From Elusimicrobia bacterium GWA2_69_24 (GTDB lineage: Bacteria > Elusimicrobiota > Elusimicrobia > UBA1565): DNA of 64,000 bases. Below are positions 18,683-44,001 of this stretch, piece after piece. Each line of letters begins with the position of its first letter. Position 1 is the stretch's first letter. The stretch covers positions 52,504-116,503 of the forward strand of contig MGTY01000130.1 of the NCBI GenBank assembly GCA_001799695.1. Reading direction: 5' to 3'. The translations under genes were made by a program, and so were the position numbers. Below the pieces are notes generated by a model, which was given only the letters and a program-made list of their open reading frames with translations, had not been told where the DNA came from and did no database searches.

Positions 18683-19726
18683 TCACCCCTTGCGGGGTCC
18701 GAACACCTGCCGCGCAGCGTGCTGGTTGTGGGTACGGCACAGGAGCCGGATGTTGGCCGGGTCGTCCGAGCATCCACCCAAAGCCCAAGGGAGAAGGTGG
18801 TCGAATTCGAGCCACTCCGTCGCCTCGCAGCGCCGCCCATCCCGGGCTACGAAGGCGCAGCGTCCGCCATCCCGGCTCCAGACCTCATCTTGAACACCTT
18901 GGGGGATCCGCCGTGACGACCGGCTCGGCCGCACCCCTCTCTTTCTCGCGTGGGTTCGCCTCCGGGCCGCTTTCCGGGCGATCCTCCGGCGCGGGTCCCG
19001 CGCATCCAGCAGCGATTCGATCGCTTCACCGACGACGTCCTCCAGGCGACCAACGGGATACTTATGCCGGAGCAGACCCTTCGCCAGTTCGATCCGCGCG
19101 AGCAGGTGTTCCGACGCCGTAAAACTGATGCGTACCAGACGGTTCGGCACCGTGGCCTGGGAGGCTTGCGCTGGAGCATCAGGCGGGGAGGGCGGGTCGG
19201 GCGGCGCCGCGGTGACGACCAATTCTGGCTGACGATCGTCGCGTGGGCCTTCAAAGTCCCCCGATTCTCCTGATGGCGGAGGCGGCAGAGCCCGGACCAC
19301 ATCCGCTTGGGGGCCAAACGGCTCGAGTTCGGCCGCGATACGCTCGACTTCCCGGCGGGTTTTCCCGCTGGCCCGAACAAGGAGTCCCTCGGCGTTCGCC
19401 TGGGTCAGATGGGGGGATAGACGGACGAGCGCGCTGAGATGGATCTCACCTCGCGCGAGCATTCCCATCGCTTGCGGGAAATCGCCTATGAGGCGCGCTG
19501 CCCGGATGCGGCAATAGGCTTCGGCCTCGGATAACCCAAGGCGTTTGGTACAGTATTCGAAGAGTGAGGGAAAACTGCGCGGCTCATGACCCCTTCGGCG
19601 ATCGAACTCGGCAAGATGCGCCAGAAAGATGACCAGGACCTGCCGCTCGCCGCTGACAAGTCTTCGGAAGCGGCTGTCGAGTTCGTCGTCCGTGAGGCTC
19701 CCGACCACGACCAATTCGCGAGGCAT
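18683..19726 (-). CDS. HNH endonuclease-domain protein with a DUF222-like N-terminal region (REP13E12-like family)
   Basis: C-terminus CAFVARDGRRCEATEWLEFDHLLPWALGGCSDDPANIRLLCRTHNQHAARQ (HNH). N-terminus LAHLAEFDRRRGHEPRSFPSLFEYCTKRLGLSEAEAYCRIRAARL is typical of DUF222. Start moved to the ATG at 19726 (MPRELVVVG). Confidence 0.8.
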   Translation of the reverse strand: MPRELVVVGSLTDDELDSRFRRLVSGERQVLVIFLAHLAEFDRRRGHEPRSFPSLFEYCTKRLGLSEAEAYCRIRAARLIGDFPQAMGMLARGEIHLSALVRLSPHLTQANAEGLLVRASGKTRREVERIAAELEPFGPQADVVRALPPPPSGESGDFEGPRDDRQPELVVTAAPPDPPSPPDAPAQASQATVPNRLVRISFTASEHLLARIELAKGLLRHKYPVGRLEDVVGEAIESLLDARDPRRRIARKAARRRTHARKRGVRPSRSSRRIPQGVQDEVWSRDGGRCAFVARDGRRCEATEWLEFDHLLPWALGGCSDDPANIRLLCRTHNQHAARQVFGPRKG

Positions 19727-19769
19727 GCCTACAAGTACGATCGACCCGCCGGAAAGTTCCCTGAATTGT

Positions 19770-19788
19770 GACTCTGTCTGGACAGAGT
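19770..19788. repeat. Palindromic repeat copy 2 (GACTCTGTCTGGACAGAGT)
   Basis: Same core as copies 1 and 3. Intergenic, between the HNH gene and the upstream hypothetical gene. Confidence 0.75.
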
Positions 19789-19887
19789 GCGGAGGCGAAG
19801 AGCACGCACCCAAAGAGATGGTCCAGATGTTATCGAACTGCCCCAAAGCGTTTGATGGTGTGCCAGCCAGGCGGGGCTACACTCAAT

Positions 19888-20817
19888 CTATTTCACTTCC
19901 CATTCCTTGGGGTCGTAGTTGTCTATGACATCCAATGCTGGGCCATAGGAGTGGCGAAAAACTTCCTCACGCAACCGCTCTATGCGCTGCTCTCGACTGA
20001 GACCTGTATCAGCCATTATCTTTCTTACCTTGGCCCGCACATCCCCGCCAATTTGTTGACCTCCGGTAGATTTGAATGTCACAGAATGACCTTTCCGAAG
20101 ATCCCCGATGATCCACGACAACACTTGTTCGCAAGCTCTCCGCTCACCTTCTGCGGCCTTCTCTTTTTCCTGCGGCGTTTCTGCATAGTCTTCCGGCAGT
20201 GGTTCCTCAGAGAAATCCAGGCCCAGCAAGATCGGTTTCCCATAATCGGCCAGATGAACATCAAGGGTTGTCGCGCCGGTCCACTTCGGATTCTGAAACA
20301 CACCTGAAGACTTGTCGAGGAATCTAATGACTTCATCCTGGACTTTCTCAAGGGGCTTGGTCTTAATACCCTCCACATACAATTTATAGGCCAGTCGAAT
20401 AGCTCGCCCAGTTTCCCTGTATGCACCCAATTGAACCTGGGTGGGTGGCGGTGGACGATTTCGTGCCTCCTCCCGTTCCAGAAGCAGTGATGGTTCCACC
20501 TGCACTCCATTCACCATTAGACGCTTACCTTGGTACTCGACCTTGTAGGGCGGGGGGATGACATGCCCATAGGCAATGACCAGCCCGGTGGTTATACCTT
20601 GGCTCTGTTTGATCGGATGGATGTCAATCTTCCTAGAACCCCTAATCCTAGTCCGCTTGATATACCGAGATAGGCCGGTGTCCGTCATCTCGGACGATTG
20701 GGCCGACATATCCCTTTCAGTCTTCGCTGGCGACTGCGCGAACAAGGGATAGGGAGTCGGAATCGTCGGCAGGAGAATCATGCTGAGTCTTAGAATATAG
20801 GCGTTCAGTGTTGTCAT
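19888..20817 (-). CDS. Hypothetical protein, low GC, possible N-terminal signal/anchor, no recognised domain
   Basis: Long ORF in a segment of about 43-50% GC. MTTLNAYILRLSMILLPTIPTPYPLFAQSPA looks signal-like. Alternative starts at 20883 and 20781. No motif recognised. Confidence 0.6.
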   Translation of the reverse strand: MTTLNAYILRLSMILLPTIPTPYPLFAQSPAKTERDMSAQSSEMTDTGLSRYIKRTRIRGSRKIDIHPIKQSQGITTGLVIAYGHVIPPPYKVEYQGKRLMVNGVQVEPSLLLEREEARNRPPPPTQVQLGAYRETGRAIRLAYKLYVEGIKTKPLEKVQDEVIRFLDKSSGVFQNPKWTGATTLDVHLADYGKPILLGLDFSEEPLPEDYAETPQEKEKAAEGERRACEQVLSWIIGDLRKGHSVTFKSTGGQQIGGDVRAKVRKIMADTGLSREQRIERLREEVFRHSYGPALDVIDNYDPKEWEVK

Positions 20818-20920
20818 GCTCAGCACTTTGAACAGTATATGTGGATTCAGATATTTGTCAACCGGACTAGCATTGGGCGGCAATTAGGCGCATCGAGGAA
20901 GCACCTAATTGACTGCGCTG

Positions 20921-34891: not shown

Positions 34892-36559
34892 ATGGCCAAC
34901 ATCCTGGTAGTCGACGACGATCCGGCCTTCGCGGCGATGCTCAAGGAGTGGCTCGTCTCCTGGGGCCACTCCGTATCCACGGCCGGCAGCGTCGACACCT
35001 TCGTCAGCGCGGCGACCCTGCAGGCTCCCGCCCTCATCCTCATGGACATGCAGTTCCCCGGCGGCGGAGCCCCCGCGGCCGTCGAGAGGATCAAGTCGAA
35101 CGCCGCGCTGAACGCTCTCCCGATCATCTTCATCTCCTCGATGCCCCTGGCCCAGATCAAGCGCTGGTTCCCCGACGCGCCGCATCGCCGGCATCACTCC
35201 AAGCCGCCGGATTTCAACGCCCTGGCCAAGCACCTCGAGGAACTCCTGCCCGGCTCGACCTCGGCCCAGTCCGCGGCCCAGCTCCACCCCGCGGCCGCGG
35301 TCCAGTCCTCTTTGTCGAAGCTGTTCGAGCCGGAGATCGCCAAGACCCGCGGCGAGAAGGAGACCTCCGACGCCAAACTGGCCGCGGCGGGACGCCTGGT
35401 GGACCTGCTCATGGCGGACGCGATCAAGGCCGGGGCGAGCGACATCCACATCGACCCCGCGCCCGACACGGTGTACATCCGCTACCGCATCGACGGGATC
35501 CTCCTGGACCAGCTCACCTACCCCAAGGACCTGCCCCTGCTCGCGCGCGTGCGCTCCCAGGGCGGCCTGGCCCCCGTGGGCGCCTCCAACCCGGTCCCTG
35601 AGGAAGGGAGCTTCGACGTCTCTTCGGGCATACGCGCCCGCCTCGCCGTGTACCCTTCCGCCTACGGCGACAAGATCACCCTGCGGCTCCTGAACCGGAA
35701 CACGGGGCTGCTGAACCTGGATTCGCTGGGCTTCCTGCCCGACGATCTGAAATCGCTGCGCAAGCTCATCCATCGCCCCTACGGGATGTTCCTGGTCTCG
35801 GGGGCGACCGGCAGCGGCAAGACCACCACGCTCTGCAGCATCCTTCTGGACCAGGAGATCGGCAAGATCAACATCATGACCCTGGAAGACCCGATCGAAT
35901 ACCAGCTGCCCCGGGTCACCCACACCCAGATCTGCCCCAAGGTGGGGCTGACCTTCACCGAAGGGCTGCGCTCCATGCTGCGTCAGGACCCCAACGTCAT
36001 CATGGTGGGGGAGATCCGCGATCCCCAGACCGCCGAGATCGCGCTCCAGGCCGCCATGACGGGCCACATGATCTTCTCCTCGGTCCACGCGACCAACTCC
36101 AGCGGCGTCGTCGCCCGGCTCATCGGCATGGGCGTCGAGCCGTACATGATCAGCTCCTTCCTGCTGGGAGCCCTCTCCCAGCGGCTCATCCGGAAGGTGT
36201 GCACGCAGTGCGCCCAGCCGTCGGCCCCGGACGCCGCCCGGATCGAGAAGACGGTGACCTCCGCGGACCCTCGCCAGCGGCAGGCGCTGCAGGCGCTCTT
36301 CGCGGCGAAGGGCGGGAAATTCACGGTCGGGAAGGGCTGCCCGGCCTGCGGCGGCACGGGCTACAAGGGCCGGGTCGGGATCTACGAACTGCTGGCCATC
36401 AGCCCCGCCATCTCCGAGCTCATCCACAAGAAGGCCACCGCGGCCGAGATCCACGAGGCGGCCATCCAGGCCGGGATGCGGACCTTCCTCATGGACGCGG
36501 CCTACAAGGCCTGGGCCGGCTGGACCACCCTGGAGGAAGCCCTCCGGGTGACCGGATAA
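34892..36559 (+). CDS. GspE/PilB-family secretion ATPase with an N-terminal response-regulator receiver domain
   Basis: REC: [13 protein letters not shown]...[10 protein letters not shown]...HHSKP. ATPase: [23 protein letters not shown], Walker [22 protein letters not shown]-terminal [23 protein letters not shown] Shine-Dalgarno upstream. Confidence 0.9.
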
Positions 36560-36612: not shown

Positions 36613-36798
36613 CTACGCGGCGACCGTCGCCTCTTTCCGGGCGAGCTTCCCCGGCAGATAGAGCTGGGCCACATAGTCCTTGAGCATCCGGTCCGAGCAG
36701 AACACCGGGCCCACCGTCTGTATGGACTCCTTCATGACCCGCACCCAGCCATGCGGCACGCCGTCCCGGCCCCGGTCGTAGAAGAGCGGGATGATCTG
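36613..36798 (-). pseudogene. Orphan duplicated 3' end of glgP (about 61 codons plus TAG); left direct repeat of the island
   Basis: 36614..36798 is identical to 41858..42042 except at 36751 (A vs G; synonymous CAT/CAC). Encodes ...IIPLFYDRGRDGVPHGWVRVMKESIQTVGPVFCSDRMLKDYVAQLYLPGKLARKEATVAA-stop with no upstream gene body. Confidence 0.8.
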
Positions 36799-36827: not shown

Positions 36828-38129
36828 TCAGCCGGGGCCTGGGGCCCCACCTGCGGCTTTTAGTTCAATCCAAGCGCGATGGTGTTCCGTGCACGGCGCA
36901 ACTTGTCGCTGAAGTCTGTCGACCGCCTGCTCCAGCCGCAGAATCGCGGTCTGGTCGATTACTCCAGCCGTGAATCGGCGCTTCATGGATTTCAGGACTT
37001 CCGCGCCATAGAACATGAGCCTCGTCGCGCCGGAATCGTCGAACACCCGTTCTGGATTCATGGGCGGCGGATTCTCTCGTCCGTCAACATGCCAACATAG
37101 CCAAGGATAGTTCTCTAGGAACTCCGCGAGCTTGACGAGGATGTCCTGGCAGAGCTTGCGGTCCAGACGAACGACTCGCGCCCGCGCCGGACCTTGGAAC
37201 CTGGAAGGCTTGTCGAAAACCTTAGCCAGCAAAGCATCCAGGGCCATACCCGCCTCGCCTCCCTTGGTGACGATGGTCGGGGACCCCTCCCAGAATCGGG
37301 CTCCGTCACCCCGATTGCGTTGTCTCGCGCGGAGACGGGAAGCCTGGTCCATACGGGAATCGAGTTCGCCCAAGAATCCCTGGACCCCGATTGGCCGTTC
37401 CTGTCGATGGAGTTCGCGCAGGCGATTCTCCAAGGCCTTACGCCTCTCACGGTCAGCGGGGCGCCAGGACATTCGAATAATCTTCTTCAAGGTTTCGATG
37501 TGATGGAATTTCTCCGTGGGAACGCGATCCAGGATGGCCTTTGCCGCTTTGACCTGCTTCAAATCATCGAAGATGTGCCCGAGATAAATGAGCGCTCTCC
37601 AATAATCAGGTTTTAATTCGATGGCGTGTTCAATCGGCGCAATCGCCTCTCGGGCGCCCTTCAGGCGATGAAGCGCGGCCCCTAGGCCCATCCACGAGGA
37701 CTCATGATTTGGGTCGATCTCTACCGCCTTGCGATAGAGACGAACCGCGTGCTCATACCGGCGGTGCTCATAGAGCAGGTACCCGAAACTGTTCGCGGTT
37801 TCCGCGGCGGGCCCCGGCAGCGCCATCACCGCTTCAATGCACGACAGCGCCTCAGAGAACCGGCCCAGGTTGACATACGCCTTGGCCAGATTCGCCAGGA
37901 CCGTATCCCAACAGGGATGGGCCCTGCGCAGCGGCTCCAGGAGGGCGCAGGCGTTCGGATAGTCGCCCATCCTATTGTGCGCGCGGGCCAATCCAAGCTG
38001 AAGGGCCGCACTCGCTGGGAAGTGAATAAGCCCGTCTTTGAAAGATTTGATGGCCTTTTCCGGGCATCCCTCGGCAAGGGCCTGGTCTCCCAGACGCCCG
38101 TACCCTACCTCGTCTCGGTTCGTCATCAT
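36828..38129 (-). CDS. TPR-repeat protein with an uncharacterised C-terminal domain (433 aa)
   Basis: N-terminal TPRs (AIKSFKDGLIHFPASAALQLGLARAHNRMGDYPNA..., AVRLYRKAVEIDPNHESSWMGLGAAL, IEHAIELKPDYWRALIYLGHIF). C-terminal about 230 aa without a recognised motif. Its ATG overlaps the TGA of the upstream gene. Confidence 0.75.
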   Translation of the reverse strand: MMTNRDEVGYGRLGDQALAEGCPEKAIKSFKDGLIHFPASAALQLGLARAHNRMGDYPNACALLEPLRRAHPCWDTVLANLAKAYVNLGRFSEALSCIEAVMALPGPAAETANSFGYLLYEHRRYEHAVRLYRKAVEIDPNHESSWMGLGAALHRLKGAREAIAPIEHAIELKPDYWRALIYLGHIFDDLKQVKAAKAILDRVPTEKFHHIETLKKIIRMSWRPADRERRKALENRLRELHRQERPIGVQGFLGELDSRMDQASRLRARQRNRGDGARFWEGSPTIVTKGGEAGMALDALLAKVFDKPSRFQGPARARVVRLDRKLCQDILVKLAEFLENYPWLCWHVDGRENPPPMNPERVFDDSGATRLMFYGAEVLKSMKRRFTAGVIDQTAILRLEQAVDRLQRQVAPCTEHHRAWIELKAAGGAPGPG

Positions 38130-39769
38130 GTGTCTCCTGGCGATACGGTGGACAGCACCGGGACACCGCCGCGGATAACGATGTACCGCAAGACTGGCCC
38201 ACCCAGAGGGCCGAGTCCGACGACAAGACCATCGCGGCCCTCAGCATAAGCTCCTTTCTTACGGAGACGAAACACCTGCCGAGCCCGCCAGGGTCCATCA
38301 GTCTCATGCCGCGCCTTATTGAGACAGATTCTCTGCCCTTTGCTCAAGTCGTCCCTCGCCTGGTCGTGTTCTGTCGGCGGCGAATAGGATAAGGCGTCGC
38401 TGCAGTATTCATCGATTGGCAGGTATCCCTTCCAACGGGAAGGAACCTCCCCAGCCCATTTTGCAGCACTTTGACCACGAAACCGCTTCCTCAATGCGGC
38501 AGGTGACAACGGCTCAAGGCGGAGGCAAACTCCGCCGACCCGCGCCTCTGATACGATGAAATCGTCCCAACAGGATTGCTCTGCCAGTTTGGCGAGGCGA
38601 TTCCATGACACATGGCCGGTGCCCTGACGCTTCGCGCGCTCGCGCCATCTGCGCAGAAAATGGGCCAGTTCCGGCTCAAGTAGCTTCGCCATTATTATGG
38701 CGCAGCCTAGAGTCAATAGGTAGGCGAGGAGGTGGTCGCGACTCTCCGTGACAACGCAGACACGACCACCCGCTGCCTTGGCCTGATTATGCAGGAGCGC
38801 AAGAAACAAGAACGGGCGCAGGGCGCCCTTGCCGCTGCCGAAAATCCTGCCGAGAACGATGAAGCATCGCTTGCCGCCGATCCAGCGTCCGCAATCATCA
38901 ATATATCGCTCGCTCCTGAGCAATACACGGAGATGCTCGATGCTCTCAAACGGTGAGCTAGCCACCACCGCGGTCGAGGTTGTTCCTATCTCGCCGCCGC
39001 CGATGATTTCACTCACCTCCGTGTTGATCTGTGGCCGGCGTTCCGCCGCGATGAAGGGAAGCCGCGCTCTGATGTCAAGGAACGAAAATCCCGGCAAGGG
39101 CTTTCGGTCCCAACGGAGAATCATGAGCCGCTCCAGCGCCCGCGGATCGCCATGTTGCTGCAGAGGGATTGATGTCCAAAGTTTGTGGGCTTCACGGCGA
39201 TCGCCGGCATCGAAGCGGAGGTGCCCAAGATACGAGATCGCCTGGACGTGGCGCGGTGCCCGTTCGAGCAGGCGGCGCAGGATGCCTTCTGCAAATCGGG
39301 GATGCCCGGCCCGGTGCAGGGTCGCCGCCAGCCCCATGGCGGCGTTTTCGTCATCGGCCCGCAAGCGCAGACATGCTCCATACGCCCGCACGGCAGGCGT
39401 CTTCTGCCTAGCCCGGAAAAGCTCCTCCGCCGCCGACAACGCATCATTCGGGGTGAGGTCGGGGGCATCCAACAATCGCGCCAGCGTATTCGCGGCTTCC
39501 CGGGGCAATCCAAGTCGCACCTCGGCAACCATAAGTCCGCAGAGAACATTGGCGTTTCTTGGAAGTTTCTGAAGAAGCGCAAGAAAGCGCTCGCGCCCGC
39601 CGGCGATCTCGCCCCCATACAGAAGGCACAACGCCTCTGAGAGCAGCAAGCCCGTATCGCCGGGGAAACGCGCCAAGCCCTCGCGGGCGACACGAAGACC
39701 TTCATCATATTGCCCCGCGGCAAACAACGCGGGGCAGCGGCGCTCGTACTCATCGCTTGTCTGGAACAT
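38126..39769 (-). CDS. TPR-like repeat protein with a large uncharacterised C-terminal domain (547 aa)
   Basis: N-terminal about 220 aa of TPR-like helical repeats (GQYDEGLRVAREGLARFPGDTGLLLSEALCLLY..., AEGILRRLLERAPRHVQAISYLGHLRF). C-terminal about 320 aa not recognised; it contains FGSGKGA and VVTESRD strings of uncertain meaning. Confidence 0.75.
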   Translation of the reverse strand: MFQTSDEYERRCPALFAAGQYDEGLRVAREGLARFPGDTGLLLSEALCLLYGGEIAGGRERFLALLQKLPRNANVLCGLMVAEVRLGLPREAANTLARLLDAPDLTPNDALSAAEELFRARQKTPAVRAYGACLRLRADDENAAMGLAATLHRAGHPRFAEGILRRLLERAPRHVQAISYLGHLRFDAGDRREAHKLWTSIPLQQHGDPRALERLMILRWDRKPLPGFSFLDIRARLPFIAAERRPQINTEVSEIIGGGEIGTTSTAVVASSPFESIEHLRVLLRSERYIDDCGRWIGGKRCFIVLGRIFGSGKGALRPFLFLALLHNQAKAAGGRVCVVTESRDHLLAYLLTLGCAIIMAKLLEPELAHFLRRWRERAKRQGTGHVSWNRLAKLAEQSCWDDFIVSEARVGGVCLRLEPLSPAALRKRFRGQSAAKWAGEVPSRWKGYLPIDEYCSDALSYSPPTEHDQARDDLSKGQRICLNKARHETDGPWRARQVFRLRKKGAYAEGRDGLVVGLGPLGGPVLRYIVIRGGVPVLSTVSPGDT

Positions 39770-39784
39770 CCCGCATCCCCCAAA

Positions 39785-39812
39785 GGCGGGTCAAAAGAAT
39801 CCCGCCTTTTTT
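39785..39812 (+). terminator. Intrinsic-terminator-like hairpin GGCGGG-N10-CCCGCC followed by TTTTTT
   Basis: Stem at 39785..39790 and 39801..39806, T6 at 39807..39812. The U-tract is on the plus strand only, yet no plus-strand gene ends upstream, so its role is unclear. Confidence 0.35.
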
Positions 39813-39855
39813 AGGTCCCGGTTGTCGGTCGGGGCCAAGTTTGACGACAAAGTCC
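39810..39855 (+). repeat. Direct repeat copy 1 (TTTAGGTCCCGGTTGTCGGTCGGGGCCAAGTTTGACGACAAAGTCC)
   Basis: About 85% identical, with small indels, to 39923..39965. Lies in the divergent intergenic region between the TPR operon and the R-M operon. Confidence 0.6.
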
Positions 39856-39922
39856 AGCCTGTGTCGGAGTTCCCAAAAAATACGGAACCCCGATTCCAAG
39901 GTGGAACCAGGGTCTACGTCGC

Positions 39923-39965
39923 TTTAGGTCCCGTTTAGGCCGGGGCCAAGTTGACCTTAAAGTCC
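39923..39965 (+). repeat. Direct repeat copy 2 (TTTAGGTCCCGTTTAGGCCGGGGCCAAGTTGACCTTAAAGTCC)
   Basis: See copy 1. Followed by a 7-bp-stem hairpin GCTGAGA/TCTCAGC at 39970..39989. Confidence 0.6.
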
Positions 39966-40187
39966 CACCGCTGAGAAACAGCTCTCAGCCTATTAACTTT
40001 AACAGGAATCCCTGGATTTTCAAGACCCAGAGAAGACCTGGACATCGGGGGCCTCATCGCCGCCGGAAGGGTCGATAACACACATGGCACGGTTCGCCTG
40101 GGAATGATAAAATGCGGCAAGGGAACTATTTTGATGCTCAATCGTATAAGAGGGGTCCCCCATGGTTCCGGCAAGGAGGAAAAAGCC

Positions 40188-41108
40188 ATGAGCATGAACG
40201 TTCCCCATCCCATACCGTATCAAGGCAGTAAGAGAAACCTAGCGGATCGTATTCTAAGGTGCTTCCCTGCCAGGGTGGAAACCCTTTTTGAGCCTTTTGC
40301 CGGTTCGGCGGCCGTCTCATTAGCCGCAGCCGCGCAAAGGAAGGCCAAACGATTCCACATCAATGACCTAAACAAGCCGCTGATCGATCTCTGGCGCGAA
40401 ATTGTGAACACCCCCGAGCAGCTCGCGGAGGCGTACGAAACTCTTTGGCATTTGCAGCTCAATGAACCTAGGACCTACTATAAGGCCATCCGCGAGAAAT
40501 TCAATCTAACGGGACGACCGGATTATTTCCTCTACCTTCTAGCCAGATGTGTCAAAGCCTCAGTGCGCTATAACTCGAATGGGGAATTCAATCAGAGCCC
40601 GGATAATCGTCGCAAAGGTACATTGCCGACAACCATGAGGGAACAGATTGCCGACGCGTCGTTCTTATTGAAAGGCCACACCGCATTCTCTTCCCAAAAC
40701 TACCGAGATGTTGTGCTGCACGCCAACAGGAACGATTTGATTTATATGGACCCCCCATATCAGGGGGTTTGCGGGAACCGTGACACGCGCTATCTTGCCA
40801 GCGTTCAATTCTGCGAATTTGTCAGTGTTCTGGAAGAACTTAATTCCAGGCAAATCAAATATATTGTCAGCTATGATGGCCGCACCGGCAACAAGGTGCA
40901 TGGTCGTCTTTTGCCCGAGCATCTAAGGCTAACCCATATGGAGTTGCAGGCGGGGCGCTCCTCTCAGGCGACACTTCTTGGCAGAAAGGACGCCACTTTT
41001 GAATCCCTTTATCTTTCTCCCGGATTGTCTGAAGAGCTCAAGGCGTCTGGGATGGCATACGACCTCCTCCCCAGCAAGCAGCTGTGCTTTTTGGATTCGA
41101 GACCATGA
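40188..41108 (+). CDS. D12-class N6-adenine DNA methyltransferase (Dam-like)
   Basis: PYQGSKRNLADRIL, FEPFAGSAAVSL (SAM-binding FxGxG-type motif), catalytic DPPYQG. AAGGAGG Shine-Dalgarno 8 nt upstream of the ATG at 40188. Confidence 0.9.
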   Translation: MSMNVPHPIPYQGSKRNLADRILRCFPARVETLFEPFAGSAAVSLAAAAQRKAKRFHINDLNKPLIDLWREIVNTPEQLAEAYETLWHLQLNEPRTYYKAIREKFNLTGRPDYFLYLLARCVKASVRYNSNGEFNQSPDNRRKGTLPTTMREQIADASFLLKGHTAFSSQNYRDVVLHANRNDLIYMDPPYQGVCGNRDTRYLASVQFCEFVSVLEELNSRQIKYIVSYDGRTGNKVHGRLLPEHLRLTHMELQAGRSSQATLLGRKDATFESLYLSPGLSEELKASGMAYDLLPSKQLCFLDSRP

Positions 41109-41827
41109 ACAAGGCAAGATTACCCAAAGAATTCGTGCGGCTATGCAAAAAGGTAACTGCCAAGCGTCCTCGCACGGTCATCGAGCACATCCTCAAACAT
41201 GGCTTCATAACGACCCAACAGTTGAAAGATAGGTACGGTTATAATCACCCTCCTCGGGCCGTCCGCGATGTCAAGGAGAATGGAATCCCAATCGAGATGT
41301 TCCGCGTGGAAGGCACGGATGGCCGCAAAATCGCAGCCTACCGGTTCGGCGACTACAAAAAGGCTCGGTTTGGGAAGTTTGCAGGCCGCACAGCGTTCAC
41401 CAAAGAACTAAGACGACATCTCGTCAGGCTCAATGGCGCAAGGTGCGCCATTTATCTTGAACCATTCGATGAACGCGATCTGCAAATCGACCACCGGATT
41501 CCCTTTGAAGTGTCCGGCGACCAGCCCGAAGAGGGGAGTAAGGCCGCGGACTTTATGCTGCTGTGCGGCTCCGCCAATCGCGCCAAGTCCTGGTCTTGCG
41601 AACACTGCGCAAACTGGCGTGCCCAGAAAGAACCGCATATCTGCCGCTCATGTTACTGGGCCTACCCAGACAATTACTCGCACATTGCCATGCGTCCGCT
41701 TCGACGATTGGATCTCATGTGGACGGGCAATGAAGTTCAGTCCTATGAGCAATTGAAGAAGAAATCGGAAGAACTTCAACAAACGATGCCCGCCTACGTT
41801 AAGCGCGTTATCGAGAAGAATCTGTAG
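41105..41827 (+). CDS. HNH-type endonuclease, probable cognate type II restriction enzyme
   Basis: LQIDHRIPFEVSGD...LLCGSANRAKSWSCEHCANW...CRSCYWAYP (HNH plus Cys-rich zinc motifs). Its ATG overlaps the methyltransferase TGA (ATGA). Specificity unknown. Confidence 0.75.
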   Translation: MNKARLPKEFVRLCKKVTAKRPRTVIEHILKHGFITTQQLKDRYGYNHPPRAVRDVKENGIPIEMFRVEGTDGRKIAAYRFGDYKKARFGKFAGRTAFTKELRRHLVRLNGARCAIYLEPFDERDLQIDHRIPFEVSGDQPEEGSKAADFMLLCGSANRAKSWSCEHCANWRAQKEPHICRSCYWAYPDNYSHIAMRPLRRLDLMWTGNEVQSYEQLKKKSEELQQTMPAYVKRVIEKNL

Positions 41828-41856: not shown

Positions 41857-44001
41857 TTACGCGGCGACCGTCGCCTCTTTCCGGGCGAGCTTCCCCGGCA
41901 GATAGAGCTGGGCCACATAGTCCTTGAGCATCCGGTCCGAGCAGAACACCGGGCCCACCGTCTGTATGGACTCCTTCATGACCCGCACCCAGCCGTGCGG
42001 CACGCCGTCCCGGCCCCGGTCGTAGAAGAGCGGGATGATCTGTTCCTCCAGCACATCGTAGAGACCCTGGGCGTCCGCGTCGTCGCGCTCTCCCTCCGGC
42101 AGGTGCGTGGTCGCCTTGGGCGCCCAGCCGTTCTGCCGGTTGTAGCCCTCCTCCCACCAGCCATCGAGGATGCTGAGGTTGGGGACCCCGTTGACCGCCG
42201 CCTTCTGGCCGCTGGTGCCGCAGGCCTCCAGGGGAGCGAGCGGGTTATTGAGCCAGAGGTCCACCCCGGAGACGAGGTAGTGGGCCTTGTGCATGTCGTA
42301 GTCCTCGACGAAGGCGATGTGCCCGCCGATCTCCGGATCCTTGGCCAAGTTGTACACCTGCTGGATGAGCTTCTTCCCGCCGTCGTCGGCCGGATGGGCC
42401 TTGCCCGCGAACACGAGCTGCACGGGCCGCCACGGGTCGAGCAGGAGCTGGCGCAGGCGCCCGAGGTCGCGCAGGATGAGGGTAGCCCGCTTGTAGGGCG
42501 CGAAGCGCCGGGAGAACCCGATGGTGAGGGCGTCCGGGTCCAGCATGGAGCCGTGCGCCAGGACCTGCATCGGGTCGATCCGGTCGCGCATCCAGCGCGC
42601 GCGCACCTGGGAGCGGATGAAGTTCATGAGGTCGTGCTTGCGCCGGGCGTGATGCTCCCACACCGCCTCGTCCGGGACCTTGGCGATCCTGGCCCACATC
42701 GCCGGGTCGTCCTGCCGTTCCTTCCAGTCTTTGCCCAGATGCAGGTCATAGACCTCGGCCATGGACTGACAGACCCAGGTGGGCAAGTGCACCCCGTTGG
42801 TGACGTGGGTGATGGGGACCTCCGCCGCGGGTCGGCCCTCGTAGAGCTTGCGCCACATCTTCCGGCAGACCTCGCCATTGGGGCGACTCACCCCGTTGGT
42901 CCGCCCGGCCAGGCGCAGCGCCAGGGCGGTCATGTTCCAGCCGTCCTCGCCCGGCACCCGGGCGAGGCCCATGAAGGCCTCCCGGTCGAGCCCCAGGGAG
43001 GGCCAGAAGTCCTTGAAGTACTCCTCGATGAGCGGCTCTTCGAACACGTCGTGCCCGGCCTCCACCGGCGTATGCGTCGTGAACACCACCTCTCCGGAGA
43101 GCACGCGCCGCGCCTCCGCGAAGCTCCGACCCTGCGCCACGAGCTCGCGCAGGCGCTCCAGGAGCATGAACGCTGCATGGCCTTCGTTGATGTGGAACAG
43201 GCGGATGTCCAGCCCGAGCTCGCGCAGGACGCGCAGACCGCCCATGCCCAGGACGATCTCCTGACGCAGGCGGGTGCTGCGGTCGCCGCCGTAGAGCCGG
43301 TTGGAGACCTCCCGGTCGCGCAGGTCGTTGCCCTCCACGTTGGTGTCCATCAGGATGAGCGGTACCCGGCCGACCTGGACGCGCCAGACCGCGATCTTGA
43401 GGTGCCAGCCGCCGATGTCCAGGGTCAGCACGCAGGGGCTGCCGTCGGGCCGGCACGCGGGCCGCACGGGAGAGGAGGCGCGGTCGAGGCGCTCGTAGTG
43501 GTTCTGCTGCCAGCCCTCGATGCCGAGCCGCTGCTGCACATAGCCCTCGGGATACATGAAGCCCACGCCCGCCAGGGGCACTCCGAGGTCGGAGGCCGTC
43601 TTGCAGTGGTCGCCGGCGAGTATGCCGAGGCCGCCGGAGTAGATGGGCAGGGACTGGTGCACGCCGAACTCGGCCGAGTAGTAGGCGATCATGCCCTGAT
43701 GCTCGGGGTGGCTGCGCTTGAACCAGGTCGCGCGGTCCGGGGCCGTGTATTCCTCGAACTGGGCGATGACGGAGTCATAGGCCTGCAGGAAGGCGGGGTC
43801 CTTGGCCCGGTCGCGCAGATCCGCGGCCCGCATCTTCCCCAGCATGCGCACGGGGTTGTGGTTGGTCTCGCGCCAGAGCGTCATGTCCATGCTCTTGAAC
43901 AGGGCCCGGGCGCTGGGGTTCCAGGTCCACCACAGGTTGTAGGCGACGTCCTCGATGCGTCCGATGCGCTGGGGCAGCTTGCCGGTCTCGTTTCCTGCCA
44001 T
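41857..44001 (-). CDS. glgP: Alpha-glucan (glycogen/maltodextrin) phosphorylase, GT35 family
   Basis: MAGNETGKLPQRIGRIEDVAYNLWWTWNPSARALF...YYSAEFGVHQSLPIYSGGLGILAGDH...FSRRFAPYKRATL...EACGTSGQKAAVNG. AAGGAG Shine-Dalgarno 7 nt before the ATG at 44001. Alternative ATG at 44019. The 1013-aa track ORF over-extends upstream. Confidence 0.9.
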   Translation of the reverse strand: MAGNETGKLPQRIGRIEDVAYNLWWTWNPSARALFKSMDMTLWRETNHNPVRMLGKMRAADLRDRAKDPAFLQAYDSVIAQFEEYTAPDRATWFKRSHPEHQGMIAYYSAEFGVHQSLPIYSGGLGILAGDHCKTASDLGVPLAGVGFMYPEGYVQQRLGIEGWQQNHYERLDRASSPVRPACRPDGSPCVLTLDIGGWHLKIAVWRVQVGRVPLILMDTNVEGNDLRDREVSNRLYGGDRSTRLRQEIVLGMGGLRVLRELGLDIRLFHINEGHAAFMLLERLRELVAQGRSFAEARRVLSGEVVFTTHTPVEAGHDVFEEPLIEEYFKDFWPSLGLDREAFMGLARVPGEDGWNMTALALRLAGRTNGVSRPNGEVCRKMWRKLYEGRPAAEVPITHVTNGVHLPTWVCQSMAEVYDLHLGKDWKERQDDPAMWARIAKVPDEAVWEHHARRKHDLMNFIRSQVRARWMRDRIDPMQVLAHGSMLDPDALTIGFSRRFAPYKRATLILRDLGRLRQLLLDPWRPVQLVFAGKAHPADDGGKKLIQQVYNLAKDPEIGGHIAFVEDYDMHKAHYLVSGVDLWLNNPLAPLEACGTSGQKAAVNGVPNLSILDGWWEEGYNRQNGWAPKATTHLPEGERDDADAQGLYDVLEEQIIPLFYDRGRDGVPHGWVRVMKESIQTVGPVFCSDRMLKDYVAQLYLPGKLARKEATVAA
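41858..42042 (-). repeat. Right 185-bp direct repeat (3' end of the intact glgP)
   Basis: Identical to 36614..36798 apart from one synonymous mismatch (41995). Confidence 0.9.

What the first reader, a model, noticed from the sequence alone, without database searches (positions are those of the whole stretch)
36828..39769. Two translationally coupled TPR-plus-unknown-domain proteins next to an R-M pair: candidate undescribed defence or regulatory module
The island's only other cargo is a two-gene operon with an ATGA overlap at 38126..38129. It encodes 547-aa and 433-aa proteins with the same architecture: about 200 aa of N-terminal TPR-like repeats, followed by C-terminal domains of 320 and 230 aa in which I recognise no family. 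I saw only weak strings of uncertain meaning (FGSGKGA, VVTESRD, CWHVDGRENPPP). The operon is divergent from a Dam-like methyltransferase / HNH endonuclease pair, on a horizontally acquired segment. Defence genes cluster in such islands, and TPR modules occur as sensor or scaffold parts in several anti-phage and STAND-like systems. I could not match the pair to any named defence system from memory, so it is a reasonable candidate for a new one. An alternative is an island-encoded regulator of the R-M system.
Basis: inference. Interest (0 to 1): 0.75.

Follow-up and report, generated by a model that had tools for sequence, protein, structure and literature searches.

The report
TPR pair with dead phosphatase domain
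Two overlapping genes on a small foreign DNA island beside a restriction-modification pair encode repeat-scaffold proteins, one carrying a catalytically dead phosphatase domain; they are real and very rare, but nothing yet shows they form a new phage-defence system.

Summary
Genes A (38126-39769, minus strand, 547 aa) and B (36828-38129, minus strand, 433 aa) overlap by ATGA, and both start with a paralogous TPR domain of about 220 aa. With a Dam-family methyltransferase and an HNH-type restriction enzyme they fill a 5.06-kb island. The island has foreign composition (GC3 59-68% against 92-94% in host genes). It is bounded by a 185-nt duplication of the 3' end of a glucan phosphorylase gene, in a groundwater Elusimicrobiota genome.

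A's "unknown" C-terminus is a diverged Shewanella-like PPP phosphoesterase domain (hhalign probability 97.9%). B's C-terminus is a conserved, basic, helical domain with no detectable relative. Neither protein has an effector domain or matches any PADLOC model.

Both families are extremely rare: A has one relative and B has two. In those contigs the A-B pairing is not kept. The same R-M pair travels on small plasmids without TPR genes.

Most likely these are non-catalytic binding or adaptor proteins carried as island cargo. A new defence system remains possible (about 0.15) but unproven.

The parts
36614..36798 (.). Left copy of the 185-nt direct repeat. It is the displaced 3' end of the glucan phosphorylase gene; its stop codon (TAG on the minus strand) is at 36613-36615.
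   Evidence: the repeat finder family D1; pairwise alignment with one mismatch; sequence read.
36828..38129 (-). Gene B, 433 aa (432 aa from the second ATG). TPR solenoid over residues 1 to about 245, a disordered linker at about 245-285, and a conserved basic all-helical domain at about 285-427 with no detectable family.
   Evidence: 52-53% identical full-length relatives P0003 and P0004; AlphaFold2 pLDDT 79.7; no PDB match; no family match; C-terminal half net charge +10.
38126..39769 (-). Gene A, 547 aa: an N-terminal TPR domain (residues 1 to about 222) followed by a degenerate PPP-type phosphoesterase domain.
   Evidence: no relative in the word-indexed search; 11 hits in the exhaustive search; P0094: 29% identity over 299 aa, E 2e-28.
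38129..38986 (-). Pseudophosphatase domain of A (residues about 262-547). The motif relics are SSPFE at 271-275 (for GDxHG), G307-RIFGSG-313 (for GDxxDRG), E342-SRD-345 (for GNHE) and G518-LGP-521 (for GHTP).
   Evidence: phmmer against PDB 2z72/1v73, E 2.8e-4; two-sequence profile against PDB, E 1.3e-5; hhalign against six canonical enzymes, probability 97.9% and E 5.8e-13; motif columns; beta-alpha-beta-alpha-beta pattern at 267-340 in the AlphaFold2 model, pLDDT 55-75.
39770..40187 (.). Divergent intergenic region of 418 nt. It holds back-to-back promoter-like sites (minus strand 40023-39996, plus strand 40084-40113), two imperfect direct repeats of about 45 nt (39810-39855 and 39923-39965), and a hairpin followed by a U-run in the A/B leader (39914-39886).
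   Evidence: leader fold z-score -3.15; no controller-protein ORF. Promoter and terminator counts are not above the shuffled expectation.
40188..41108 (+). Dam-family (D12 class) N6-adenine DNA methyltransferase, 306 aa. An AAGGAGG Shine-Dalgarno sequence precedes the ATG at 40188.
   Evidence: gene call of 306 aa; 52% identity to the methyltransferase of Hymenobacter plasmid pHsw3.
41105..41827 (+). Type II restriction endonuclease, 240 aa, with an HNH-type motif. It overlaps M by ATGA.
   Evidence: PADLOC REase_II PDLC03566, E 1.5e-56. A 48% identical relative on pHsw3 is annotated 'HNH endonuclease signature motif containing protein'. Pfam HNH itself was not detected.
41858..42042 (.). Right copy of the 185-nt direct repeat. 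It is the in-frame 3' end of the intact glucan phosphorylase gene; its stop codon (TAA on the minus strand) is at 41857-41859.
41857..44001 (-). Target gene: alpha-glucan phosphorylase (DUF3417 plus Phosphorylase domains, 714 aa by the gene call). The island sits in its 3' end.

Best explanation
SHOWN:
- A and B form a translationally coupled operon encoding two non-enzymatic TPR proteins.
- Their N-terminal TPR solenoids of about 220 aa are paralogous.
- A's C-terminal domain descends from a Shewanella-like (Shelph) PPP-family metallophosphoesterase. Every metal-binding or catalytic signature residue has been replaced, and the same holds in its only relative (P0094). It is therefore a pseudophosphatase.
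- B's C-terminal domain is a conserved, basic, all-helical module with no detectable relative.
- The operon and a Dam-family/HNH type II R-M pair make up a tightly packed 5,059-bp foreign insert in the 3' end of a glucan phosphorylase gene. The insert is bounded by a 185-bp duplication of the target and carries no mobility gene. This matches the described class 'R-M insertion with long target duplication'.

INFERRED:
- A and B act as binding or adaptor proteins. The TPR solenoids would capture protein partners, possibly each other, since the TPR domains are paralogous and translation is coupled.
- The dead PPP pocket would hold a phosphorylated or nucleotide-like ligand without hydrolysing it.
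- The basic C-terminal halves might contact nucleic acid.
- They are accessory cargo that came in with the R-M unit. They are not a part of the R-M system, and they are not a self-contained effector-bearing defence system.
- Whether their role is sensing for defence, counter-defence or something unrelated to conflict is not resolved.
For: Anatomy: ORFs and ATGA overlaps; TPR; paralogous TPR domains, E 3e-15.

Pseudophosphatase: PDB 2z72/1v73, E 2.8e-4, alignment across motifs I-III; profile, E 1.3e-5; the exhaustive search returns only P0094 plus Metallophos PF00149 enzymes; hhalign 97.9%, E 5.8e-13; all motifs replaced in both A and P0094. The PPP signature is defined in PMC535813.

No effector and no known system.

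B is a real family: (two relatives, 52-53% identical over the full length, 72% mean column identity).

Pairing not conserved.

R-M independent of the TPR genes.

Island: GC, GC3, 185-nt repeat with one mismatch; same context in four contigs. The criteria of Furuta et al. 2010 (PMC2853133) are met: R and M inside the insert, insert under 20 kb, duplication over 30 bp, no mobility genes.
Against: - The functional part is inference only; there are no expression, interaction or phenotype data.
- The AlphaFold2 model of A's C-terminal domain is poor (pLDDT below 50 for most of residues 353-547). The fold is therefore supported by sequence profiles over about 100 residues, not by structure, and homology beyond motif III rests on a weak alignment.
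- Comparative evidence is thin: three contigs of 2-8 kb, one of which lacks an upstream flank.
- The contexts of B's relatives (excisionase-like and YafY/WYL-like HTH genes, a PD-(D/E)xK-like motif, an AAA_5/MoxR-like ATPase) are compatible with a genuine defence role.
- No empty site could be found, so the mode of insertion is assigned by criteria, not demonstrated. The duplication starts exactly at the stop codon, which would also fit site-specific integration by an integrase acting in trans.
Confidence: 0.5

Rival explanations
1. New two-gene anti-phage or anti-plasmid defence system. A and B would sense an invader through the TPR domains or the decoy phosphatase domain, and would trigger growth arrest or an unidentified effector activity in B's C-terminal domain.
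For: - The pair lies on a horizontally acquired island directly beside an R-M system.
- It matches no known system and is very rare and patchy, as accessory immune genes often are.
- B's relatives sit next to an excisionase-type HTH, a YafY/WYL-type HTH, a protein with a PD-(D/E)xK-like motif and an AAA_5/MoxR-like ATPase.
- Conflict systems are known to recruit inactive enzyme modules (PMC7159879).
Against: - Neither protein has a recognisable effector (nuclease, NADase, pore, protease or NTPase).
- The pair is not conserved as a pair. A's relative is a solo gene beside a livF-like ABC ATPase gene.
- There are only 2 and 3 family members, so defence-island enrichment cannot be tested.
- Adjacency to one R-M system is weak evidence.
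Confidence: 0.15
2. Island-encoded modulators of the adjacent R-M system. They might, for example, delay restriction during establishment or tune M/R expression from the shared divergent promoter region.
For: The A/B and M/R operons share a 418-nt divergent intergenic region with two direct repeats and a structured A/B leader. This R-M version has no classical controller protein. All four genes arrived as one tightly packed unit.
Against: - M+R relatives (37-52% identity) work on small plasmids without any TPR gene. The Hymenobacter pHsw3 version has the same M-to-R layout and no controller.
- A and B have no HTH or other DNA-binding family match.
- Relatives of A and B occur without an R-M neighbour.
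- Composition differs modestly between A/B (GC 60-61%) and M/R (51-53%), which hints at separate origins.
Confidence: 0.07
3. Ordinary signalling or scaffold proteins unrelated to genetic conflict, which merely hitch-hiked with a selfish R-M unit. One example would be a pseudophosphatase that buffers a host phospho-signalling pathway.
For: TPR proteins and pseudophosphatases are typical regulatory scaffolds (established knowledge). A's relative lies between a tRNA-like fragment and a housekeeping-type ABC ATPase gene. There is no defence-model hit.
Against: Such scaffolds normally have a partner pathway in the host, yet these genes are foreign to this host (GC3 66-68% against 92-94%). They are also nearly absent from about 15 billion proteins. 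B's relatives sit in mobile-element-like DNA.
Confidence: 0.2
4. Non-functional ORFs: decaying remnants or spurious reading frames.
For: A has almost no relatives, and its enzymatic motifs are destroyed.
Against: - Both are long intact ORFs in 60%-GC DNA, with the usual GC-by-codon-position pattern.
- B is 52-53% identical over its full length to proteins from two other environments.
- A and P0094 share 29% identity over about 300 aa, and both keep the same non-catalytic residues around the dead motifs, for example WIGG(K/R)RC and LRxFLFL(A/S)LL.
- The coupled ATGA junction is intact.
Confidence: 0.05

Closest known systems
Shewanella-like PPP phosphatases (Shelph/SLP; Shewanella cold-active protein-tyrosine phosphatase PPI, PDB 1v73/2z72)
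   Same: A residues of about 247-345 align to the N-terminal catalytic subdomain, with the same spacing of strands, helices and motif positions. The C-terminal tail is also alignable, with GLGP in place of GHTP.
   Different: All signature motifs (GDXHG, GDXXDRG, GNH(E/D), GH) are replaced, so no metal site is expected. There is no signal peptide; a TPR domain sits at the N-terminus instead. There are long insertions after motif III. Identity is only 21-24%.
Eukaryotic protein phosphatase 5 (PP5/Ppt1): N-terminal TPR plus C-terminal PPP catalytic domain (from established knowledge; not tested here)
   Same: The domain order is the same: a TPR domain followed by a PPP-fold domain in one polypeptide.
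   Different: PP5 is an active enzyme with three TPR repeats and belongs to the conventional eukaryotic PPP clade. A has about 10-11 TPR-like helices pairs' worth of solenoid (13 helices in the model), is catalytically dead, and derives from the bacterial Shelph clade. The shared architecture is probably convergent.
R-M gene complexes inserted with a long target duplication (Nobusato/Furuta/Kobayashi; PMC2853133)
   Same: R and M lie in a small insert of about 5 kb with atypical GC, flanked by long direct repeats of target sequence (185 bp here; 46-423 bp reported), with no transposase or integrase.
   Different: This insert carries two extra genes of unknown function. No empty-site genome is available to prove the duplication. 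One repeat boundary coincides with the stop codon of the target gene.
TPR-bearing NTPase conflict systems (STAND/Avs-type NLR-like proteins; MoxR-vWA ternary systems; PMC7159879)
   Same: TPR arrays as putative sensor or adaptor modules; recruitment of an inactive enzyme domain; one B relative lies next to a MoxR/AAA_5-type ATPase gene.
   Different: The island has no NTPase core, no vWA domain and no effector domain. The FGSGKGA string is a relic of GDxxDRG, not a Walker A motif.

Membership tests
PPP-family (calcineurin-like) metallophosphoesterases, Shelph clade | Sequence or profile homology to the conserved N-terminal catalytic subdomain | tested here: met
   phmmer against PDB 2z72/1v73, E 2.8e-4; profile, E 1.3e-5; hhalign probability 97.9%, E 5.8e-13 over 72 columns. 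The exhaustive search returns Metallophos enzymes as the only non-family hits.
PPP-family (calcineurin-like) metallophosphoesterases, Shelph clade | Motif I, GDXHG (metal ligands Asp and His) | tested here: not met
   A has V-V-A-S-S-P-F-E-S at this position, with no Asp or His in any register. P0094 has C-A-D-S-Q-S, so the His is lost. Motif definition from PMC535813.
PPP-family (calcineurin-like) metallophosphoesterases, Shelph clade | Motif II, GDXXDRG (bridging Asp; Arg binds phosphate) | tested here: not met
   A has G307-R-I-F-G-S-G313. P0094 has G-N-V-F-G-G-R-G.
PPP-family (calcineurin-like) metallophosphoesterases, Shelph clade | Motif III, GNH(E/D) (metal ligand Asn; catalytic His) | tested here: not met
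   A has E342-S-R-D345. P0094 has G-E-E-D.
PPP-family (calcineurin-like) metallophosphoesterases, Shelph clade | C-terminal subdomain ligands (H(A/G)G, GH) and the bacterial (I/L/V)D(S/T)G motif | tested here: inconclusive
   GHTP aligns to G518-L-G-P521 (His lost). No HAG or (I/L/V)D(S/T)G equivalent is visible. The alignment of this half is weak, and the model there has pLDDT below 50.
PPP-family (calcineurin-like) metallophosphoesterases, Shelph clade | Metallophosphoesterase beta-sandwich fold | tested here: inconclusive
   The AlphaFold2 model shows the expected beta-alpha-beta-alpha-beta pattern at 267-340, but only at pLDDT 55-75, and the rest is unreliable. Foldseek returns only TPR matches.
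Tetratricopeptide-repeat (TPR) proteins | Pfam TPR matches above the curated cut-off, and a helical solenoid structure | tested here: met
   A: TPR_19 40.5 bits (cut-off 25) and TPR_14 26.5 bits (cut-off 23.5). B: 12 TPR families above cut-off. AlphaFold2 solenoids have pLDDT of about 90. Foldseek top hits are consensus-TPR, OGT and SPY structures, E 1e-7 to 1e-10.
Known or candidate anti-phage defence systems (PADLOC-DB v2.0.0) | A match of A or B to any component HMM | tested here: not met
   No families at E up to 1 for A and B. None for P0094. Only a chance-level hit for P0003 (PrimPol, E 0.011).
STAND / MoxR-vWA / GTPase-centred conflict systems with TPR sensors | An NTPase core (P-loop STAND, MoxR AAA+ or GTPase) in the same protein or operon | tested here: not met
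   No NTPase family matches A, B or anything else in the island. A MoxR/AAA_5-type gene follows B's relative in L002 only. Definition from PMC7159879.
Type II restriction-modification system (the neighbour, not A/B) | An adjacent DNA methyltransferase and a cognate-type endonuclease | tested here: met
   M: MethyltransfD12 E 3.5e-38, TIGR00571 dam 129 bits (cut-off 114.85), PADLOC MTase_II E 1.9e-81. R: PADLOC REase_II E 1.5e-56. The same pair occurs on three plasmids. The HNH assignment rests on the annotation of a relative and on the visible DH...N motif; Pfam HNH was not detected.
R-M insertion with long target duplication (Furuta et al. 2010) | R and M inside the insert; insert under 20 kb; direct repeat over 30 bp; no mobility genes | tested here: met
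   Insert of 5,059 bp; repeat of 185 bp with one mismatch; no integrase or transposase match. Criteria quoted from PMC2853133.
R-M insertion with long target duplication (Furuta et al. 2010) | A related genome with an empty site holding a single copy of the repeat | not testable with these tools
   The nearest species-level genomes are 52-59% identical and not syntenic. An exact empty-junction pattern scan of metagenome contigs found nothing.

The most novel reading that the evidence does not exclude
A and B are the sensing half of an undescribed immune module. The catalytically dead Shelph-type phosphatase domain would serve as a decoy or bait that captures a phage-encoded factor, such as a kinase, a phosphatase inhibitor or a nucleotide signal. 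The paralogous TPR domains would couple A to B, whose novel basic helical domain delivers the output. The output might act on nucleic acid or through the neighbouring HNH restriction enzyme. This would be a decoy-pseudoenzyme defence principle carried on a minimal R-M mobile unit.
Probability: 0.1. Interest if true: 0.75.

Novelty: new variant of a known kind. Interest (0 to 1): 0.33.

Why it matters
If the pair turns out to have a conflict-related role, it would be an example of a bacterial pseudophosphatase used as a binding or decoy module. It would also show that small R-M mobile units can carry extra cargo when they insert with a long target duplication. As things stand, the firm gains are three:
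- An "unknown" domain is reassigned to the PPP phosphoesterase fold in a dead form.
- Two ultra-rare protein families are defined (two and three members among roughly 15 billion proteins).
- A clean example of R-M insertion with a 185-bp target duplication is documented in Elusimicrobiota, a phylum not among those named in the passages read from the 2010 survey of this phenomenon.

The rarity of both families limits their general importance and rules out statistical guilt-by-association.

Tried and rejected
- Walker A reading of FGSGKGA: rejected. The string aligns column for column with GDIFDRG of PPP enzymes.
- Family libraries for the C-terminal domains (Pfam, NCBIfam, PADLOC, PHROGs): only TPR matches.
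- Word-indexed search with full-length A: found only itself.
- Word-indexed search with B's C-terminal alignment: returned nothing, not even its own members, so I treat it as a tool artefact and not as a true negative.
- The search for related loci for B's C-terminal domain in metagenome and viral contigs, and for A's C-terminal domain in viral contigs: nothing.
- tblastn of B's C-terminal domain against plasmids and phages: nothing.
- PDB sequence and profile searches for B's C-terminal domain: nothing.
- Foldseek of both full-length models: swamped by TPR hits and uninformative for the C-terminal domains.
- Excised circular form: the 5.3-kb island-only contigs L005 and L006 simply break inside the repeat, so they are not evidence for a circle.
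- Empty site: relatives are too distant and not syntenic, and the exact junction scan found nothing.
- L001's 245-aa and 324-aa genes as a second R-M pair: rejected. One is a TPR protein, the other is unknown, and there is no similarity to M or R.
- Controller protein in the intergenic region: none.
- Avoidance of 4-mer palindromes as a clue to R-M specificity: GATC ratio 0.86 and CATG ratio 0.99, not informative.
- HEPN-like Rx4-6H motif in B's C-terminal domain (by eye): not present.
- tRNA at the start of L007: looks like a D-arm fragment by eye, but ARAGORN does not call it.
- Literature searches for a TPR plus metallophosphoesterase anti-phage module, or for bacterial calcineurin-like pseudophosphatases: no papers.

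Full report
OBSERVATION. A is 38126..39769 (minus strand, 547 aa) and B is 36828..38129 (minus strand, 433 aa). On the minus strand the junction reads ...GACACATGATGACGAAC..., so A's TGA stop overlaps B's first ATG. B's relatives align from its second Met, so a 432-aa form with a 1-nt overlap is equally possible; either way the genes are translationally coupled. Both proteins begin with TPR repeats. Pfam TPR_19 scores E 3.6e-10 for A and 1.4e-20 for B, and many other TPR families pass their cut-offs for B. AlphaFold2 gives confident solenoids with pLDDT of about 90. The two N-terminal domains are paralogous: 26% identity over 222 residues with one small gap at the very start, E 3e-15. The C-terminal halves are unrelated to each other.

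THE ISLAND. GC falls from about 68% to 52-61% between 37 and 42 kb. GC3 separates three groups: host genes 92-94%, A and B 66-68%, M and R 59-62%. The segment is bounded by a direct repeat whose core is 185 nt with a single mismatch, at 36614-36798 and 41858-42042. The repeat is the 3' end of an alpha-glucan phosphorylase gene (DUF3417 plus Phosphorylase). The right copy is in frame with the intact gene and ends in TAA. The left copy is the displaced remnant, ends in TAG, and sits next to the native downstream terminator. The unique DNA between the copies is 5,059 bp and is tightly packed: 29 nt, B, A, a 418-nt divergent intergenic region, M, R, 30 nt. M (40188-41108, 306 aa, preceded by AAGGAGG) is a Dam-family D12 methyltransferase. 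R (41105-41827, 240 aa) matches a PADLOC type II restriction enzyme model at E 1.5e-56. M and R also overlap by ATGA. There is no tRNA, no Rfam match, no integrase or transposase and no controller-protein ORF.

The flanks are housekeeping genes: a T2SSE ATPase with a receiver domain, an OPT transporter, a CNNM protein, a DHH phosphoesterase, a diadenylate cyclase and aconitase. The host is a groundwater Elusimicrobiota bacterium. All four public contigs that carry A are this same organism and locus.

These features meet the criteria of Furuta et al. [quoted passage not shown] R and M lie in the insert, the insert is under 20 kb, the duplication exceeds 30 bp, and there are no mobility genes. 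The confirming empty site could not be obtained. The nearest genomes are 52-59% identical and not syntenic, and an exact empty-junction scan of metagenome contigs found nothing. Two 5.3-kb island-only contigs merely break inside the repeat and are not evidence for a circular form.

PROTEIN A. The word-indexed search of 5.8 billion clusters found only A itself. An exhaustive HMMER scan of 1.84 billion representatives with residues 215-547 gave 11 hits. One of them, P0094 (468 aa), is a true family member with the same TPR-plus-C-terminal architecture: 29% identity over 299 residues, E 2e-28. The others are calcineurin-like phosphoesterases (Pfam Metallophos) or close relatives of them.

Independently, phmmer against PDB sequences hit the Shewanella cold-active protein-tyrosine phosphatase (1v73/2z72) at E 2.8e-4. 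The alignment runs across the three PPP signature motifs. A two-sequence profile improves this to E 1.3e-5. hhalign against six canonical enzymes gives probability 97.9% and E 5.8e-13.

[quoted passage not shown] In A these positions read SSPFE, G307-RIFGSG-313 and E342-SRD-345, and the later GHTP reads G518-LGP-521. P0094 is degenerate at the same places.

With every metal ligand of the N-terminal subdomain replaced in both family members, the domain cannot be an active metallophosphoesterase. It is a pseudophosphatase whose inactivation predates the split of A and P0094. The structural support is weak: the model shows the expected beta-alpha-beta-alpha-beta pattern at 267-340 only at pLDDT 55-75, the rest is below 50, and Foldseek sees only the TPR part.

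PROTEIN B. Two full-length relatives exist, P0003 (429 aa) and P0004 (432 aa). They are 52-53% identical over both domains, with 72% mean column identity. The model has a TPR solenoid to about residue 245, a disordered linker, and an all-helical domain at about 285-427 with moderate confidence. This domain carries conserved motifs: FWxGxPxIVxKG, RARVxRLDRKLCQD, AEFLExYPWL, GVID and EHxRAxIEL. It matches nothing in Pfam, NCBIfam, PADLOC, PHROGs, PDB sequences or profiles, plasmids, phages, or viral and metagenome contig scans. One negative is unreliable: the alignment-based word-indexed search did not even return its own members. The C-terminal halves of both A and B are net basic, +16 and +10.

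GENOMIC CONTEXTS OF RELATIVES. P0094 (locus L007, 2.2 kb) is a solo gene. It is followed by a convergent livF-like ABC ATPase gene and preceded by 286 nt and a tRNA-like fragment that ARAGORN does not call. P0003 (L001, 8 kb) is preceded by an excisionase-type HTH fragment and a 207-aa protein. It is followed by a 471-aa protein with a RPDF...IDAKK motif, a 709-aa protein made of ten tandem repeats of 65-72 aa, an unknown 245-aa protein, a 324-aa TPR protein and a YafY/WYL-type HTH fragment. Nothing there resembles A, M or R. P0004 (L002, 2.8 kb) is followed by a MoxR/AAA_5-type ATPase, and its upstream flank is too short to judge. The A-B pairing is therefore seen only in this window. The neighbourhoods of B's relatives look like mobile or conflict-related DNA, but none of their genes matches a PADLOC model convincingly.

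THE R-M PAIR ELSEWHERE. Relatives of R (37-48% identity) and M (44-52%) occur together on a 7-kb Hymenobacter plasmid, a 5-kb Aeromonas plasmid and an Arsenophonus plasmid. On the Hymenobacter plasmid the M-to-R layout is the same and R is annotated as an HNH-signature protein. The Aeromonas and Arsenophonus versions have an HTH regulator. None of these records carries a TPR gene. The R-M unit therefore moves and works without A and B, which argues against A/B being its regulators.

MECHANISM. The following are shown:
- two coupled genes;
- paralogous TPR domains;
- a dead PPP domain in A;
- a novel conserved helical domain in B;
- no effector, NTPase or DNA-binding family;
- foreign origin, together with an R-M unit.

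The rest is inferred. The proteins are binding or adaptor proteins. TPR solenoids bind peptides or partner proteins, and the paralogy plus translational coupling suggest an A-B complex. The dead phosphatase pocket may hold a phospho-ligand or nucleotide without turnover, and the basic C-terminal halves may touch nucleic acid. I rate this non-catalytic cargo-adaptor reading at about 0.5. A self-contained new defence system gets about 0.15, an R-M modulator about 0.07, a conflict-unrelated scaffold that hitch-hiked about 0.2, and non-functional ORFs about 0.05.

Kaur et al. [quoted passage not shown] That makes a decoy role for the dead phosphatase conceivable. However, the NTPase cores that define those systems are absent here.

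COMPARISON AND NOVELTY. A works like a TPR-tethered pseudophosphatase. It is homologous to Shelph-type PPP enzymes but fails all three signature-motif tests, so it should not be filed as a phosphatase. The TPR-then-PPP order recalls eukaryotic PP5 (from established knowledge), probably by convergence. The island is a new example of a known kind of R-M mobility, here with two extra genes. I found no paper describing a TPR-plus-metallophosphoesterase defence module or bacterial calcineurin-like pseudophosphatases. Overall I class it as a new variant of known kinds: interesting as a curiosity and as a testable candidate, but very rare and without evidence for a new mechanism.

VERDICT. Interest is 0.33. 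The most novel reading not excluded is a decoy-pseudophosphatase immune sensor pair, with probability of about 0.1 and interest of about 0.75 if true.

Noticed in passing
window 36613-36615 and 41857-41859 (ends of the 185-nt repeat): The target duplication begins exactly at the stop codon of the glucan phosphorylase gene. The displaced left copy ends in TAG and the in-frame right copy ends in TAA. This is odd for a random staggered cut and would also fit site-specific integration in trans, yet the island has no integrase.
   Followed up: partly
window 39770-40187: The divergent A/B-M/R intergenic region holds two imperfect direct repeats of about 45 nt (39810-39855 and 39923-39965). On the A/B leader strand there is a 13-bp-stem hairpin followed by a U-run (39914-39886). 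The 241-nt leader folds better than all 200 shuffles (z = -3.15). It has no Rfam match, so it may be an attenuator or operator arrangement.
   Followed up: partly
window 18683-20883 (minus strand): A second low-GC patch. It holds a 387-aa protein with a C-terminal HNH motif (Pfam HNH E 9e-4, below cut-off; GC3 0.70) and a 331-aa unknown protein with a hydrophobic N-terminus (GC3 0.56), next to a host gene with GC3 0.945. There is no PADLOC hit and no flanking repeat. It is probably another small foreign insert.
   Followed up: partly
L001 3836-5965: A 709-aa protein built of ten tandem repeats of 65-72 aa, each ending in GWxGxGDW(L/V/I)G, with a conserved (K/N)FRSFxxARxFxRKLKLK...EWxAYCxGKxPRLGxRPxDIP core. 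It has only sub-threshold Pfam and PHROG matches.
   Followed up: partly
L001 2407-3822; L001 3-176 and 7854-8033: Next to B's relative lies a 471-aa protein with a RPDF...IDAKK motif that looks like a PD-(D/E)xK nuclease signature (by eye; no family match). The contig ends carry an excisionase-type HTH fragment and a YafY/WYL-regulator-type HTH fragment (by eye).
   Followed up: no
L002 1831-2820: B's relative P0004 is followed after about 290 nt by a MoxR/AAA_5-type ATPase gene (AAA_5 E 4.8e-11; bpMoxR E 4e-4, below cut-off). The gene is cut by the contig end, so whether a vWA partner follows is unknown.
   Followed up: partly
proteins P0095, P0101 and P0103 (hits): Several relatives of the Shewanella-like phosphatases, apparently secreted to judge by their hydrophobic N-termini (by eye), also have partly degenerate PPP motifs; for example P0103 has GYMLG, GNIFGPG and GKTE. 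Inactivation therefore seems to have happened more than once in this clade.
   Followed up: no
window 41105-41108: M and R overlap by ATGA, the same coupling as A/B. The same Dam-family M plus HNH-motif R pair occurs on 5-7-kb plasmids of Hymenobacter and Aeromonas and on an Arsenophonus plasmid between IS6 copies.
   Followed up: yes
window 34892-36559 (plus strand): The left-flank host gene is a T2SSE/PilB-type secretion ATPase with an N-terminal response-regulator receiver domain. Orthologues with the same fusion occur across Elusimicrobiota MAGs (52-59% identity).
   Followed up: partly
tool behaviour: homologous-protein run with the three-sequence alignment of B's C-terminal domain returned no hit at E up to 0.01, not even the proteins the alignment was built from. 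That negative should not be relied on.
   Followed up: partly
window 38732-38674 (A residues 346-364): Directly after the motif III relic, A has a hydrophobic stretch, HLLAYLLTLGCAIIMAKLL (Kyte-Doolittle mean 1.89 over 19 residues). P0094 does not share it. It is probably a buried helix rather than a membrane span, but this was not tested.
   Followed up: no
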